A program made the position numbers and the translations under genes. From Escherichia coli (lineage in GTDB: Bacteria; Pseudomonadota; Gammaproteobacteria; Enterobacterales; Enterobacteriaceae), in assembly GCF_003334815.1 (NCBI RefSeq), contig NZ_QOWO01000004.1: a DNA stretch of 64,000 bases; one strand, written 5' to 3'. The notes under the pieces are model-generated. The model ran no database searches, was not told the DNA's origin, and saw only the letters and a program-made list of their open reading frames with translations. Positions 3,164-46,616 of the stretch are shown piece after piece. Numbering within the stretch: the stretch's first letter is position 1; each line of letters opens with the position of its first letter.

Positions 3164-3229
3164 TATACTCTAGATAATTAAAGTCGCAGCACATGCAACT
3201 TGAAGTATGACGAGTATAGCTTTCTTAAA

Positions 3230-3249
3230 GGGGGAAACGGTATTCCCCC
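3230..3249 (-). terminator. Hairpin downstream of toxin gene 1 (GGGGGAA / TTCCCCC stem); weak U-tract
   Basis: Inverted repeat read directly; on the minus strand only TTT follows the stem. Confidence 0.4.
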
Positions 3250-3272
3250 TTAGATGCGTTTCAATTTGCCCG

Positions 3273-3362
3273 TTACTTCAACAAATCAATCAACCGTAAC
3301 AGAGCCACTAATAACTCCAGTACGGCAATGAGCACGGTTAACTTTTGTGTCAGCGTGTCCAT
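3273..3362 (-). CDS. zorO: Type I toxin, 29-aa hydrophobic peptide MDTLTQKLTVLIAVLELLVALLRLIDLLK (ZorO-like)
   Basis: Minus-strand ATG at 3362 with AAGGAG 5 nt upstream, TAA at 3275..3273; one predicted transmembrane helix with charged ends. Not in the supplied ORF track (too short). Gene name from memory of the zor-orz family. Confidence 0.75.
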   Translation of the reverse strand: MDTLTQKLTVLIAVLELLVALLRLIDLLK

Positions 3363-3543
3363 CCGCTCTCCTTATTAAGGAGCGCAACACCAGCACCTTA
3401 CCCTTACACTGCCTGTTGATACTGGTTTACGTATGTTGGTACGAAACGTTGCTCTCCGGATCAGGGCACCGCCTGCGGCACCACCCGTCCGGCAGCCAGG
3501 ACTTAAAATTGGTCCGATCCGGCACAACCTCCCAACGGGCAGG

Positions 3544-3594
3544 ATTATAAATCTCACTCACTGAATTGCAATGGAGTGTGGATATGGTTATAAT
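3544..3594. promoter_or_regulatory. Back-to-back sigma70 promoters of unit 1
   Basis: Toxin promoter on minus strand: -10 TATAAT (complement of 3544..3549), 16-nt spacer, -35 TTGCAA 3566..3571. sRNA promoter on plus strand: same palindromic TTGCAA as -35, 17-nt spacer, -10 TATAAT 3589..3594. Confidence 0.55.
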
Positions 3595-3600
3595 TTATTC

Positions 3601-3681
3601 GTTGGTACGAAATGTTGCACAATCAGCAAGTTAGCGTCACTGTAGTAAATAAAAGAACCTGCCTCACCAGCAGGTTTTTTT
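3601..3681 (+). ncRNA. orzO: Antitoxin small RNA 1 (OrzO-like), ~80 nt
   Basis: Predicted start ~7 nt after the -10; 5' segment 3601..3620 GTTGGTACGAAATGTTGCAC is complementary to the toxin leader at 3435..3452; ends at an intrinsic terminator. Extent is predicted, not measured. Confidence 0.6.
3656..3681 (+). terminator. Intrinsic terminator of sRNA 1 (AACCTGC-CTCACCA-GCAGGTT followed by a T-run)
   Basis: 7-bp stem, 7-nt loop and a T7 run read directly. Confidence 0.7.
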
Positions 3682-3837
3682 ATTTACTGCGATCTACTTT
3701 CCAGATATTTTTTGCCAATAGCCCAACTTAAATATTCACATCCCGGTCAAATGGTGCGTTGAATATAAAATCGATGAATTTATAAATAAAAATGAGTTAT
3801 ATGATGAATTAATAAAAACAGTAATCATTTTATTAAA

Positions 3838-3857
3838 GGGGGAAGCGGTTTTCCCCC
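3838..3857 (-). terminator. Hairpin downstream of toxin gene 2
   Basis: GGGGGAA...TTCCCCC inverted repeat, as in unit 1. Confidence 0.4.
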
Positions 3858-3880
3858 TTAGATGCGTTTCAATTTGCCCG

Positions 3881-3970
3881 TTACTTCAACAAATCAATCA
3901 ACCGTAACAGAGCCACTAATAGCTCCAGTACAGCAATGAGCACGGTTAACTTTTGTGTCAGCGAGTCCAT
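3881..3970 (-). CDS. zorP: Type I toxin paralog, 29 aa MDSLTQKLTVLIAVLELLVALLRLIDLLK (ZorP-like)
   Basis: Same architecture as 3273..3362; one substitution (T3S); AAGGAG Shine-Dalgarno conserved. Confidence 0.75.
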   Translation of the reverse strand: MDSLTQKLTVLIAVLELLVALLRLIDLLK

Positions 3971-4151
3971 CCGCTCTCCTTATTAAGGAGCGCAACACCA
4001 GCACCTTACCCTTACACTGCCTGTCGATACTGGTTTACGTATGTTGGACCACGATGTTGCACTCCGGATCAGGGCACCACCTGCAGCACCCCCCGTCCGG
4101 TAGCCAGGACTTGAAATAGGTTCGATCCGGCGCAACGTCCCAACAGTCAGG

Positions 4152-4202
4152 ATTATAAATCTCATTATCTTAATTGCAACGGGGTCCAGCCGTGGTTATA
4201 AT
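4152..4202. promoter_or_regulatory. Back-to-back sigma70 promoters of unit 2
   Basis: Toxin -10 (complement of 4152..4157), shared -35 TTGCAA 4174..4179, sRNA -10 TATAAT 4197..4202; spacers 16 and 17 nt. Confidence 0.55.
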
Positions 4203-4208
4203 TCGTTC

Positions 4209-4291
4209 GTTGGAACACGATGTTGCACAGGCTGTGGTGTTAGGCCTGAAAATAGTAAATAAAAGAACCTGCCTCACCAGCAGGTTTTTTT
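4209..4291 (+). ncRNA. orzP: Antitoxin small RNA 2 (OrzP-like)
   Basis: 5' segment 4209..4228 GTTGGAACACGATGTTGCAC is complementary to the leader of toxin 2 at 4043..4062; intrinsic terminator at the 3' end. Confidence 0.6.
4266..4291 (+). terminator. Intrinsic terminator of sRNA 2
   Basis: Same AACCTGC...GCAGGTT stem and T-run as unit 1. Confidence 0.7.
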
Positions 4292-4402
4292 ATTTACTGC
4301 GATCTGCTTTCCAGATATTTTTTGCTCAAACAACTAATGCGCCAAACATTTATTGCGCGTAAAATATCGTTTATTTCATTAATACATTTCAGGGATGAAT
4401 AT

Positions 4403-24716: not shown

Positions 24717-24889
24717 GATGAGCATTCAGATAGTGGTTCACGCGCACGGGTTGCGCACCGCCGGAGTAAGGATTTACTGAGGCTAGCGACGCCATCATAA
24801 CGAGCAAAAAGTGCGATCGTCAAAGGAGAATCGTGAGGAAATGCTGCATTGCTGACATTTACGCCAGCAATGCAACGTCAAAGAACTTT

Positions 24890-36354: not shown

Positions 36355-36540
36355 GACGCATCCGGCATTTGGTTCCTGTCGCCGGATGCGGCTTGAACGC
36401 CTTATCCGGCCTACAAAACCATACAAATCAGTATGTTGAGCTTATTGTAGGCCGGATAAAACGCGCCAGCGTTGCATCCGGCATTTGGCTCCTGTTGCCG
36501 GATGCGGCGTGAACGCCTTATCCGGCCTACAAAACCACAC
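36355..36540. repeat. BIME: cluster of REP elements in alternating orientation
   Basis: Three GCCGGATGCGGC...TTATCCGGCCTACAAA-type units between preA and mglC. Confidence 0.85.
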
Positions 36541-44624: not shown

Positions 44625-46616
44625 TCAGAAGCGATAATCCACTGCCATAAAGTAACGACGTCCGTCTTCGTTATAGCTGTAGTCGTCACGACTGAGATCC
44701 TTGTCGCCAAGGTTCAGCACGCCTGCGCGCAGTTTGACGTCTTTAGTCACCTGCCAGGCCGCGCCGGTATTCCAGATGGTATAACCGCCCGGTGTTTTAG
44801 CCGTCGCGCTGTCGGCGCGTTTCTGCCCGGTATAGTGCCCAGAAACATAGAATGACCAGTCTTCCAGCGCCAGCGGTTTCCAGTCCAGCGTACCGTTAGC
44901 AGTATGGAACGGCAGATCGGATAGCGGTTTGTTTTCGCCGTTGCTGACATCACGACCATCGTTGTAGGTGTAGTTGATCGACAGTTTCCATTCATCGTTG
45001 AACGGAATTTTCAGTTCGGTTTCCACGCCCTGAATACGAGCTTTGTTAACGTTGTAGTAGCTAAATACCGGTATGCGCCGTCCGTTAGCGCCCGTCTCAA
45101 AACCAACAAAGTTTTGGTAGCCCGGTGCAGCGTTGACGTCAGACGTACGGCTGATGCTGATACGATCTTTCACATCGTTACGGAAAACGGTAACGCTGGA
45201 TTCAACCCCTTCCAGCCAGCCTTCTTCACCCATGTAGTAAAGCCCCAGCTCCCAACTTTCGCTGGTTTCTGGTTTCAGATCCGGGCTACCCACAATCTTA
45301 CATGCGCCACGGCAGGAATTGCTCGTCCAGTCAGGGCTAAGTTGCAACAGAGAAGGTGCTTTAAATGCCGTCGCCCAGCCCCCTTTCACCGTTACGGTGT
45401 CGGTGGCGTTATAAACCAGGTAGGCACGCGGACTCCAGTGTTCACCGTAGGTTTCGTGATCGTCCATACGCACGCCGGTCGTCAGCGCCAGCGGCTCGAA
45501 GATCCGCCATTCATCTTCCACAAACAGCGCGTACTGGCTGGCAGACGTTTTGGAGCTGGTTCCCCCGGTCAGGTTCACCGCATCGCTAAGTTTGTCGTGA
45601 CGCCATTCACCGCCAACCGTGAGAAACTGATTAATCGCCGTCAGCGGCAACGTGTATTTGCCGTCGACCGTATTGCTTTCGGAAGTTATCGGGCTGCTGT
45701 TGCCAGGGTTTTTGTTCTCGACTTTCTCACCGTAGTATTTCAGTTCGCTGGTGCCGTAATCCCAACGCCCATTATGGCTGACGGAGTAGTTCTGGCGTTC
45801 CAGGCGGTTTTTGTCCAGCGAGTCGGAATCACGATCCTGACGGTCGAAACCGTATCCGGCAGTAAAATCGTGATTTTGATTCGGTGTCCAGGCAAATTCG
45901 ACATTGCCGTCGCGGCTGGAGAATCCTTCAATACGCGGCGTTTCTCCGGTATCGGTGGTCGTTGAGTTTTGCGGGTCATCCTTTTCACGTTTTGCCAGGC
46001 TGCCGTAAGCTTTCATTCCCAGCACACCATCAATTAATGGTCCACTGGTAAAGAACTGACCGTTATAGGTGTCACCGCGATCGCGATGTTCCTGAATGGT
46101 GGTATCGACGGTAACGGTACCCGACCATTTCTGACCGATTTTTTTGGTGATGATATTCACTACACCGCCGAGCGCATCGGAACCGTACAGCGACGACATC
46201 GGGCCACGGACCACTTCAATACGTTCGATGGAATCGACCGGGATCCAGTTCAGATCGAAATCATTGTGGCGGAAGACGGCATTGCGGGAGTTCACGCGTT
46301 TACCGTCGACGAGAATCAGGGTATAGCTGCTGTCCAGACCACGAATACTAACGCCCTTACGGTTATCCCCTTCGTTCGTCAGTTGTACGCCAGGCACTTC
46401 TTTGAGGACATCCTTCAGATTCTGTACCGGTTTTCGCTGCAGGTCTTCCTGGGTAATGACGCTGATACTGGCAGGTGCATCTTTAAGATTTTGTTCCACG
46501 GAAGATGCAGTGACAACCATCGTTTCGCCATCATCATCGACCGCTAACACAGGCCATGCACAAGAAATAGCGGACAAACACAGCCCGACCCGTACGAAAG
46601 GGTTCAACCTAAACAT
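44625..46616 (-). CDS. cirA: TonB-dependent catecholate siderophore / colicin I receptor (663 aa)
   Basis: Signal peptide; terminal aromatic residue (ends DYRF). Confidence 0.9.

What the first reader, a model, noticed from the sequence alone, without database searches (positions are those of the whole stretch)
3544..3594. Divergent toxin and antitoxin promoters share one palindromic -35 hexamer
TTGCAA at 3566..3571 is its own reverse complement. It sits 16 nt from a TATAAT on the minus strand (toxin) and 17 nt from a TATAAT on the plus strand (sRNA). The same arrangement recurs in unit 2 (4174..4179). Both -10 hexamers are perfect consensus. Such an overlap would make RNA polymerase binding to the two promoters mutually exclusive, a built-in switch between toxin and antitoxin transcription.
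Basis: seen in the sequence. Interest (0 to 1): 0.5.

Follow-up and report, generated by a model that had tools for sequence, protein, structure and literature searches.

The report
Toxin/antitoxin promoters sharing one -35
The finding is real: it is the already published promoter pair of the E. coli zorO-orzO and zorP-orzP toxin-antitoxin genes, where one palindromic TTGCAA serves as the -35 element in both directions, but whether this makes a transcriptional "switch" has never been tested and the evidence here does not show one.

Summary
Observation confirmed exactly. ATTATA(3544-3549)-16 nt-TTGCAA(3566-3571)-17 nt-TATAAT(3589-3594) recurs at 4152-4202. None is expected by chance.

The locus is the known tandem zorO-orzO / zorP-orzP type I toxin-antitoxin pair. 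Rfam OrzO-P matches both sRNAs, and the 29-aa ORFs match what the literature gives for ZorO and ZorP (29 aa; ZorP differs by T3S).

Published primer-extension start sites, placed on the window from the papers' numbers, lie 7 nt (zorO, 3536 minus strand) and 6 nt (OrzO, 3601 plus strand) after the two -10 hexamers. Shore et al. 2024 already list "-35 (TTGCAA)" and "-10 (TATAAT)" for both genes. The elements are therefore not new.

In 25 distinct natural copies all three hexamers never vary. 22 of 33 spacer positions do vary. The 17-nt spacer is constant.

Mutually exclusive polymerase binding follows from shared -35 contacts and start sites only 65 bp apart. That is inference, and none of the zor-orz papers I text-searched mention it.

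No conserved operator or feedback supports a regulated switch. The most likely effect is promoter competition that favours the antitoxin. For bidirectional promoters that share a -10, such competition only matters at high promoter activity (Warman et al. 2026).

Modest interest: a known system with a cheap, testable hypothesis.

The parts
3273..3362 (-). zorO toxin ORF (29 aa, MDTLTQKLTVLIAVLELLVALLRLIDLLK)
   Evidence: ORF list. The literature describes ZorO as a 29-aa toxin.
3363..3536 (-). zorO 5' UTR, 174 nt. The start site +1 is G at 3536, 7 nt after the -10 hexamer.
   Evidence: The published RBS at +164 to +169 and the 174-nt UTR map AAGGAG at 3373-3368 and the ATG at 3362. This gives +1 = 3536.
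3435..3452 (-). [quoted passage not shown]
   Evidence: 18-nt match to 3601-3618 with one G-U pair. The published EAP region spans +73 to +102, and OrzO pairs at its 3' end.
3544..3549 (-). PzorO -10 hexamer TATAAT
   Evidence: Invariant in 25 of 25 distinct copies. Reported as 100% conserved in 2,439 loci.
3566..3571 (.). Shared palindromic -35 hexamer TTGCAA, used by PzorO (16-nt spacer) and PorzO (17-nt spacer)
   Evidence: Invariant in 25 of 25 distinct copies. Listed as the -35 of both genes with identical conservation, 99.4% and 99.4%.
3589..3594 (+). PorzO -10 hexamer TATAAT, preceded by an invariant TGG (G at -14)
3601..3682 (+). OrzO antitoxin sRNA. The start site +1 is G at 3601, 6 nt after the -10 hexamer. 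The first 18 nt pair with zorO. It ends at an intrinsic terminator.
   Evidence: Rfam RF02083, 88.8 bits. Published: the 5' end is the 18-nt pairing stretch, and deleting 3 or 6 nt from the 5' end leaves 15 or 12 nt of pairing. The 3' end is placed by homology to the MG1655 Term-seq 3' end at 2204485.
3881..3970 (-). zorP toxin ORF (29 aa; differs from ZorO by T3S)
   Evidence: The T3S difference is stated in PMC11264685.
3971..4144 (-). zorP 5' UTR (174 nt by homology; +1 predicted at 4144)
   Evidence: Alignment of the two units and the sequence. The start site is inferred by homology and was not taken from a published coordinate.
4152..4157 (-). PzorP -10 hexamer TATAAT
4174..4179 (.). Shared palindromic -35 hexamer TTGCAA of unit 2
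4197..4202 (+). PorzP -10 hexamer TATAAT
4209..4292 (+). OrzP antitoxin sRNA (84 nt)
   Evidence: Rfam RF02083, 99.9 bits. According to PMC11264685 OrzPmg of MG1655 is 100% identical to OrzP of EDL933; over this stretch the MG1655 sequence reads the same as the window. Its Term-seq 3' end at 2204485 with a predicted +1 at 2204402 gives 84 nt.

Best explanation
The 51-bp segment, and its copy in unit 2, is the core of a compact back-to-back pair of sigma-70 promoters. PzorO fires leftward and PorzO fires rightward. The same six base pairs, TTGCAA, serve as the -35 element of both.

Shown:
- the hexamers, their spacing and their strict conservation;
- agreement with the published start sites.

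Inferred:
- Only one holoenzyme can place sigma region 4 on those 6 bp, and the start sites are just 65 bp apart. Initiation complexes at the two promoters therefore cannot coexist on one DNA copy.
- Each promoter is throttled in proportion to the time the other is occupied. This is promoter competition, not a toggle.
- Sequence asymmetries predict that PorzO is the stronger competitor. PorzO has a 17-nt spacer, an invariant G at -14 and an A+T-rich 6-nt discriminator. PzorO has a 16-nt spacer and a 7-nt discriminator that starts CC and is G+C-rich in unit 1 (CCTGCCC) but less so in other copies.
- The arrangement would then add a transcription-level bias towards the antitoxin. The established post-transcriptional controls do the main regulation: the 5' UTR structure, processing at +28, and OrzO pairing followed by RNase III cleavage.
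For: - Hexamers and spacing.
- Chance excluded.
- Start sites: zorO +1 at 3536 and OrzO +1 at 3601, derived from published numbers.
- sRNA length: an 84-nt OrzP fits the Term-seq 3' end in MG1655 and the roughly 85-nt northern band.
- Published tables give TTGCAA and TATAAT for both genes, conserved at 99.4% or more across 2,439 loci.
- In 25 distinct copies there are 0/18 variable hexamer columns against 22/33 variable spacer columns, and the 17-nt spacer is constant.
- By enumeration, a palindromic hexamer can match TTGACA at no more than 4 of 6 positions. TTGCAA is the one of the four optimal palindromes that keeps TTG on both strands.
- Experimental precedent for RNAP competition at promoters with shared elements: PMC12825309.
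- Orz sRNAs are abundant in exponential growth. [quoted passage not shown]
Against: - No experiment has measured either promoter's activity or occupancy, or the effect of one on the other.
- At five natural promoters that share a -10, basal activity was too low for competition, so the effect here could be negligible.
- Natural variants exist in which an IS element or a 20-bp scar separates the zor -10 from TTGCAA while the toxin ORF stays intact. Sharing is therefore not indispensable.
- The start-site coordinates were derived from numbers in the text, not read from the primer-extension figure.
- The predicted strength asymmetry rests on general promoter rules, not on data for this locus.
Confidence: 0.55

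Rival explanations
1. One reading: the shared -35 is a built-in switch that toggles the locus between toxin and antitoxin transcription in response to conditions.
For: - Exclusive binding is physically expected (geometry).
- Orz sRNA levels fall in stationary phase.
- The two discriminators differ in unit 1: G+C-rich for zor and A+T-rich for orz. In principle this could give opposite responses to ppGpp/DksA or supercoiling, so a fall in PorzO activity would free PzorO.
Against: - There is no conserved operator: the spacers are hypervariable.
- No regulator is known, and there is no feedback from either product onto transcription.
- The zor discriminator varies between copies (5 of 8 columns vary). 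This argues against a conserved stringent-response signal.
- Exclusion alone gives proportional competition, not bistability.
Confidence: 0.12
2. The sharing has no functional consequence. It is a by-product of packing two promoters into a minimal intergenic space. Both hexamer sets are conserved only because each promoter needs them, and RNAP occupancy is too low for interference.
For: - Basal activity of all five tested bidirectional promoters was too low for competition.
- IS-split and 20-bp-scar variants with an intact toxin gene persist in nature.
- The sibling divergent system shoB-ohsC works with -35 hexamers about 70 bp apart.
Against: - Both promoters score 10/12 with perfect -10 hexamers. 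That is far closer to consensus than typical promoters, so high occupancy is plausible.
- The palindromic compromise hexamer is kept in at least 99.4% of loci, although a single change towards TTGACA would improve one promoter.
- Orz-only loci keep the complete zor promoter.
Confidence: 0.28
3. TTGCAA is conserved because it is (part of) the binding site of a dimeric transcription factor, not because it is a -35 element.
For: It is a perfect palindrome. In unit 1 it extends to an imperfect 12-nt inverted repeat.
Against: - The extension is absent from unit 2.
- Only AATTGCAA is invariant, flanked by hypervariable sequence. That is too short for a typical 14-20 bp operator.
- Its distance to both -10 hexamers is exactly that of a -35 and never varies on the orz side.
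- The mapped start sites fit.
Confidence: 0.03
4. The dominant coupling is positive, not negative. Divergent transcription from two start sites 65 bp apart creates negative supercoils between them, so each promoter stimulates the other (twin-domain model).
For: General knowledge of divergent promoters. A dual-reporter study of E. coli divergent promoters and superhelicity appeared in the literature search but was not read (PMC4469952).
Against: - There are no data for this locus.
- Near-consensus -10 hexamers are usually little dependent on supercoiling.
- This does not remove the steric clash at the -35.
Confidence: 0.07

Closest known systems
Published annotation of the zor-orz locus (Fozo et al. 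2010, PMC2887945; Wen et al. 2014, PMC3919570; Wen et al. 2017, PMC5397157; Shore et al. 2024, PMC11264685)
   Same: It is the same locus and the same elements.
- Start sites were mapped by primer extension, and the predicted -35 and -10 elements are boxed in the figures.
- Table 3 of the 2024 paper lists "-35 (TTGCAA)" and "-10 (TATAAT)" for both zor and orz, with identical -35 conservation values.
   Different: - The 2014 and 2024 texts contain no occurrence of "RNA polymerase", and no passage found by my term searches calls the -35 shared or the promoters mutually exclusive.
- A 2025 review says the regulation of the locus remains to be deciphered.
- The functional reading is therefore untested, although the sequence facts are published.
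Prokaryotic bidirectional promoters (Warman, Grainger and co-workers: bioRxiv 2020.01.31.928960; NAR 2026, PMC12825309)
   Same: One pseudo-symmetrical DNA element is read by RNAP in both orientations, and one binding event excludes the other. Competition was shown by -35 "up" and "down" mutations.
   Different: - There the shared element is the -10 and the divergent start sites are 7-25 bp apart, mostly 18 bp.
- Here the -10 hexamers are separate, the shared element is the -35, and the start sites are 65 bp apart.
- Those promoters are weak at basal level. These two score 10/12.
[quoted passage not shown]
   Same: Back-to-back divergent promoters so close that RNAP cannot use both at once. 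This is the closest mechanistic precedent.
   Different: - That pair is controlled by a repressor/activator bound between the promoters, which is what makes it a switch. No such protein or operator is evident here.
- The paper is not held in the library. Only its citation was seen, and its content is recalled from memory.
shoB-ohsC and tisB-istR-1 (the other divergent type I toxin-antitoxin loci of E. coli)
   Same: Divergent toxin and sRNA genes. The sRNA 5' end pairs with a long toxin 5' UTR.
   Different: - In shoB-ohsC the two -35 hexamers (GTGACC and TTGTAA) lie about 70 bp apart.
- tisB is LexA-controlled and has no listed -35.
- Among the three loci compared here, a shared -35 is seen only in zor-orz.

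Membership tests
zor-orz type I toxin-antitoxin family (Rfam RF02083 OrzO-P) | The sRNA matches the OrzO-P covariance model above its gathering score | tested here: met
   88.8 and 99.9 bits against a gathering score of 60, at 3608-3681 and 4216-4291.
zor-orz type I toxin-antitoxin family (Rfam RF02083 OrzO-P) | A 29-aa hydrophobic Zor ORF lies divergent from the sRNA | tested here: met
   ORFs at 3273-3362 and 3881-3970 on the minus strand; both are 29 aa and differ only at residue 3 (T/S), the difference published for ZorO versus ZorP.
zor-orz type I toxin-antitoxin family (Rfam RF02083 OrzO-P) | The 5' end of Orz is complementary (about 18 nt) to the zor 5' UTR | tested here: met
   3601-3618 against 3435-3452, 18 nt with one G-U pair. 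This is the published pairing region.
zor-orz type I toxin-antitoxin family (Rfam RF02083 OrzO-P) | Chromosomal position between yehI/yehK and yehL | tested here: met
   Homologous loci in annotated E. coli genomes are flanked by yehK and yehL. The window has the same flanking sequence.
Sigma-70 promoter | -35 and -10 hexamers close to TTGACA/TATAAT with a 16-18 nt spacer | tested here: met
   10/12 for all four promoters, with spacers of 16 and 17 nt.
Sigma-70 promoter | Transcription starts 5-9 nt downstream of the -10 hexamer | tested here: met
   Published start sites placed on the window: 7 nt (zorO) and 6 nt (OrzO) after the hexamers. The zorP and OrzP start sites are by homology only.
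Sigma-70 promoter | RNAP binding and activity depend on the hexamers | not testable with these tools
   Needs mutagenesis and in vitro transcription. I found no promoter mutagenesis in the papers read.
Bidirectional promoter as defined by Warman et al. (shared -10) | [quoted passage not shown] | tested here: not met
   The start sites are 65 bp apart and the -10 hexamers lie 39 bp apart. Definition.
Overlapping back-to-back divergent promoters with mutually exclusive RNAP use (434 PR/PRM type) | Core elements of the two promoters overlap physically | tested here: met
   An identical 6-bp -35 element. Calculated -55 to +20 footprints overlap by about 46 bp.
Overlapping back-to-back divergent promoters with mutually exclusive RNAP use (434 PR/PRM type) | Demonstrated inability of two RNAP molecules to occupy both promoters, and reciprocal interference | not testable with these tools
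   No footprinting, gel-shift or transcription data exist for this locus in the papers searched.

The most novel reading that the evidence does not exclude
The shared -35 makes toxin and antitoxin initiation strictly anticorrelated on each DNA copy.
- PzorO would fire mainly in the gaps left by the stronger PorzO.
- Any condition that lowers PorzO occupancy, such as stationary phase when Orz levels fall, would automatically de-repress toxin transcription.
- Cell-to-cell variation in toxin expression would be shaped by polymerase competition rather than by any regulator protein.
Probability: 0.2. Interest if true: 0.55.

Novelty: already known. Interest (0 to 1): 0.3.

Why it matters
How chromosomal type I toxin-antitoxin loci are controlled at the level of transcription is largely unknown. 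A 2025 review says the regulation of zor-orz remains to be deciphered.

If polymerase competition at the shared -35 is measurable, three things would follow:
- a simple, regulator-free rule for the toxin:antitoxin transcript ratio and its noise;
- an explanation for why the compromise palindrome TTGCAA is kept in over 99% of loci;
- an extension of the recently defined class of bidirectional promoters to a -35-sharing geometry.

If it is not measurable, the arrangement is just economical packing. Either outcome needs only a few promoter mutants. The sequence facts themselves are not new.

Tried and rejected
I replaced it with a degenerate coding pattern (three Escherichia species) and a scan anchored on the orz terminator (22 metagenome contigs).
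- Start-site data:
  - The Fozo 2010 supplement with the primer-extension figure is not held.
  - Thomason 2015, Bogati 2022 and Xu and Koudelka 2000 are not held.
  - The Cappable-seq start-site file is truncated in storage.
  - Start sites were therefore derived from numbers in the main texts.
- Transcription-factor operator idea: the palindrome extends to 12 nt only in unit 1 and not in unit 2, and the flanks are hypervariable. Rejected.
- Origin of orz by inverted duplication around TTGCAA: aligning the two arms gives nothing significant beyond the promoter elements and a common GTTGG start (p = 0.39 and 0.59). Not supported.
- A third promoter-like pair, with its -35 hexamers offset by 1 nt, lies near 46510. 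It scores 9/12, sits inside a 663-aa ORF and is at chance level.
- Shared -35 as a general feature of divergent type I loci: not so for shoB-ohsC.

Full report
**What is there**

Window 3200-4330 holds two tandem copies (93% mean column identity) of a unit made of three parts:
- a small ORF on the minus strand;
- a long leader;
- a divergent small RNA gene on the plus strand.

Rfam's OrzO-P antitoxin model matches both sRNA genes well above its gathering score, at 3608-3681 and 4216-4291. The two 29-aa ORFs, at 3273-3362 and 3881-3970 on the minus strand, are MDTLTQKLTVLIAVLELLVALLRLIDLLK and its T3S variant. These fit the published ZorO and ZorP: 29 aa, with ZorP differing by T3S. Homologous loci in annotated genomes lie between yehK and yehL.

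This is therefore the zorO-orzO / zorP-orzP type I toxin-antitoxin locus first described in E. coli O157:H7 (PMC2887945, PMC3919570). A 191-nt query covering the promoter and orzO finds a match in 5,232 of 5,426 complete E. coli genomes. None of the 40 listed matches overlaps an annotated feature.

**The observation**

It is exact.
- Unit 1: ATTATA at 3544-3549 (TATAAT on the minus strand), TTGCAA at 3566-3571, TATAAT at 3589-3594. The spacers are 16 and 17 nt.
- Unit 2: the same layout at 4152-4157, 4174-4179 and 4197-4202.

The composite pattern occurs twice in the window and never in 100 shuffles. A custom scan for back-to-back promoter-like pairs that use the same -35 hexamer finds only these two sites in 64 kb and none in 100 Markov shuffles.

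**Do the hexamers fit the real start sites?**

Start sites were mapped by primer extension (Fozo et al. 2010). The later papers give numbers that let me place them on the window.
- zorO: the RBS AAGGAG is at +164 to +169 and the 5' UTR is 174 nt. With AAGGAG at 3373-3368 and the ATG at 3362, +1 is the G at 3536 on the minus strand, 7 nt after TATAAT.
- OrzO: its 5' end is the continuous 18-nt pairing stretch. Deleting 3 or 6 nt from the 5' end leaves 15 or 12 nt of pairing. The "first 18 nt of orzO" were used for the chimeric sRNAs. So +1 is the G at 3601, 6 nt after TATAAT.

The two start sites are 65 bp apart.

In MG1655, which carries an orz-only locus, a Term-seq 3' end at 2204485 (+) lies at the orz terminator. 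With a predicted +1 at 2204402 this gives an 84-nt RNA, matching the roughly 85-nt northern band.

One caveat: I derived these coordinates from the text. I did not see the gel, and the zorP and OrzP start sites are by homology.

**Is it new?**

The elements are not.
- Wen et al. 2014 box the predicted -35 and -10 elements in their Figure 1A.
- Shore et al. 2024, Table 3, list "-35 (TTGCAA)" for both Zor and Orz with identical conservation: 99.4% and 99.4% in 2,439 full loci, and 99.7% and 99.7% in 656 orz-only loci. They list "-10 (TATAAT)" for both at 100% and 99.8% in full loci.

What I could not find is any discussion of the consequence.
- "RNA polymerase" does not occur in the 2014 or 2024 texts.
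- The term searches returned no passage describing the promoters as shared or overlapping.
- A 2025 review says the regulation of the locus remains to be deciphered.

**Independent conservation test**

I collected copies with anchors outside the promoter:
- a degenerate Zor coding pattern in species-representative genomes, which found E. whittamii and two unnamed Escherichia species;
- E. coli variants down to about 80% identity;
- the orz terminator in metagenomes.

This gave 35 copies and 25 distinct sequences. All three hexamers are invariant (0 of 18 columns), while 22 of 33 spacer columns vary (Fisher p = 2e-6, descriptive only). The orz spacer is always 17 nt, and the zor spacer is 16 nt in 24 of 25. 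The spacer centres differ at about half their positions between the O and P types, whereas the RNA-coding parts are about 93% identical. The hexamers are thus islands of constraint in near-neutral sequence.

This also argues against a conserved protein operator. Only AATTGCAA, GGATTATAAAT.TC and TGG.TATAAT are fixed. The 12-nt imperfect palindrome around TTGCAA in unit 1 is absent from unit 2.

**Mechanism**

*Shown:* two near-consensus (10/12) sigma-70 promoters stand back to back and use the same six base pairs as their -35.

*Follows from established knowledge of RNAP-promoter complexes:* sigma-70 region 4 binds the -35 duplex. Holoenzyme protects roughly -55 to +20. With start sites 65 bp apart, the two footprints would overlap over about 46 bp, including the whole -35. 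Two initiation complexes therefore cannot coexist on one copy.

*Enumeration:* positions 2 and 5, and positions 3 and 4, of a palindromic hexamer cannot both match TTGACA. No palindromic hexamer can therefore match at more than 4 of 6 positions. TTGCAA is the one of the four optimal palindromes that keeps TTG, the best conserved part of the -35 (from memory of promoter compilations), on both strands. It is the best compromise for a truly shared -35. A single change towards TTGACA would improve one promoter and wreck the other, yet over 99% of loci keep the compromise.

*Inferred:* the outcome is competition, and it should favour PorzO.

| Feature | PorzO | PzorO |
|---|---|---|
| Spacer | 17 nt (optimal) | 16 nt |
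| Base at -14 | invariant G | T (no extended -10 contact) |
| Discriminator | 6 nt, A+T-rich (TTATTC) | 7 nt, starts CC; G+C-rich in unit 1 (CCTGCCC) |

The asymmetry would reinforce the excess of antitoxin that type I systems need. The documented post-transcriptional layers remain the main control: the inhibitory 5' UTR fold, processing at +28, and OrzO pairing at +85 to +102 followed by RNase III cleavage.

**Why not a "switch"?**

Exclusion alone does not toggle. It needs a regulator, feedback or a differential signal, and none is visible. The closest experimental system is the set of bidirectional promoters that share a -10. There, basal activity was too low for any competition at five natural promoters. 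Competition appeared only when one direction was made strong by -35 "up" mutations or by activators (PMC12825309). The zor and orz promoters are much closer to consensus, so competition is plausible but unproven.

Natural alleles also show that sharing is dispensable.
- In 5 of 5,426 E. coli genomes a roughly 1.2-kb IS element sits immediately beside TTGCAA, flanked by a 5-bp CTGAA duplication.
- One metagenomic Escherichia contig carries a 20-bp scar of that IS end at the same place, with an intact zor ORF.
- In both, orz keeps TTGCAA-17-TATAAT. The zor -10 is then 16 nt from TACACA, the IS tip read on the zor strand, instead of TTGCAA.
- These alleles are ready-made uncoupled controls.

**Comparison with known systems**

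- It is not a member of the Warman-type bidirectional promoters, which have a shared -10 and start sites 7-25 bp apart. It should work like them.
- Its nearest mechanistic precedent is phage 434 PR/PRM, "mutually exclusive utilization". I saw only the citation; the content is from memory. There a repressor supplies the switching.
- The sibling divergent type I loci do not share a -35. The shoB and ohsC -35 hexamers are about 70 bp apart.

**Verdict**

- The assignment to the toxin and antitoxin promoters is confirmed and already published.
- Mutual exclusion is a sound but untested inference.
- The "switch" is not supported.
- Interest is modest (0.3): a known system, with a cheap and clear experiment that could add a -35-sharing geometry to the rules for bidirectional promoters and explain a transcription-level bias in a toxin-antitoxin pair.

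Noticed in passing
L031 (metagenome contig OBVG01003148.1), about 340-400 on the minus strand. It corresponds to window 3565/3566.: A natural allele carries a 20-bp insert (TGTGTAAGTTCACAGAGATA) between the zor spacer and TTGCAA. The zor ORF is intact (MDTLTQRLTVLITVLELLVALLRLIDLLK). An otherwise identical allele without the insert is L021. The zor -10 is then 36 bp from TTGCAA, so the -35 is no longer shared.
   Followed up: yes
L035 500-600 and L037 840-900 (E. coli UTME-9, NZ_CP157110.1). Equivalent to window 3561-3566.: In 5 of 5,426 complete E. coli genomes a roughly 1.2-kb IS element (CDS annotated "integrase core domain-containing protein") is inserted with a 5-bp CTGAA duplication directly next to the shared -35. 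Both IS ends carry ATATTGCAAT about 18-27 bp from the tip. The 20-bp insert in L031 is the left tip of this IS. It looks like an excision scar formed through ATTGCAAT microhomology.
   Followed up: partly
L011 500-700 (MG1655, NC_000913.3 2204299-2204499); also L007 and L008: Orz-only loci keep the complete promoter pair, including the zor -10 and roughly 25-30 nt of zor leader (my count; the 2024 paper reports 27-29 nt). In K-12 this orphan PzorP points into the 3' end of yehK as a potential antisense promoter. Predicted start sites are about 2204337 (-) and 2204402 (+). This is useful for reading both promoter strengths from existing start-site maps.
   Followed up: partly
window 3524-3536 (-) compared with 3601-3618 (+); unit 2: 4132-4144 (-) compared with 4209-4226 (+): Both divergent transcripts begin with GUUGG. 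The zor mRNA 5' end (GUUGG-N3-GUUGU/C) resembles the Orz seed (GUUGG-N8-GUUGC). In the predicted minimum-free-energy fold, zor nt 1-13 pair with +85 to +102, the very site OrzO binds. The zor leader 5' end thus looks like a cis-acting mimic of the antitoxin, which fits the published opening of +73 to +102 after processing at +28. Aligning the two arms gives no significant similarity beyond this.
   Followed up: partly
window 3608-3681 and 4216-4291: The Rfam OrzO-P model starts 7 nt inside the mapped sRNA (+1 at 3601 and 4209), so it omits part of the 18-nt pairing seed. None of the 40 listed RefSeq E. coli matches has an annotated feature under the zor-orz promoter and orz region.
   Followed up: no
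window 3656-3676 and 4266-4286: The orz terminator hairpin is flanked by an A-run upstream and a T-run downstream. The consensus scan scored it as terminator-like on the minus strand, so it may act in both directions.
   Followed up: no
window 46500-46545: A weak back-to-back promoter-like pair (9/12 each, -35 hexamers offset by 1 nt) lies inside a 663-aa ORF on the minus strand. This is at the level expected by chance (0.3 per shuffle).
   Followed up: yes
window 24721-24801 (-) and 36450-36527 (-): Two other Rfam matches in the window: the Peptidase-S11 RNA motif (72.8 bits) and naRNA4/CssrE (88.3 bits). Both are unrelated to the finding.
   Followed up: no
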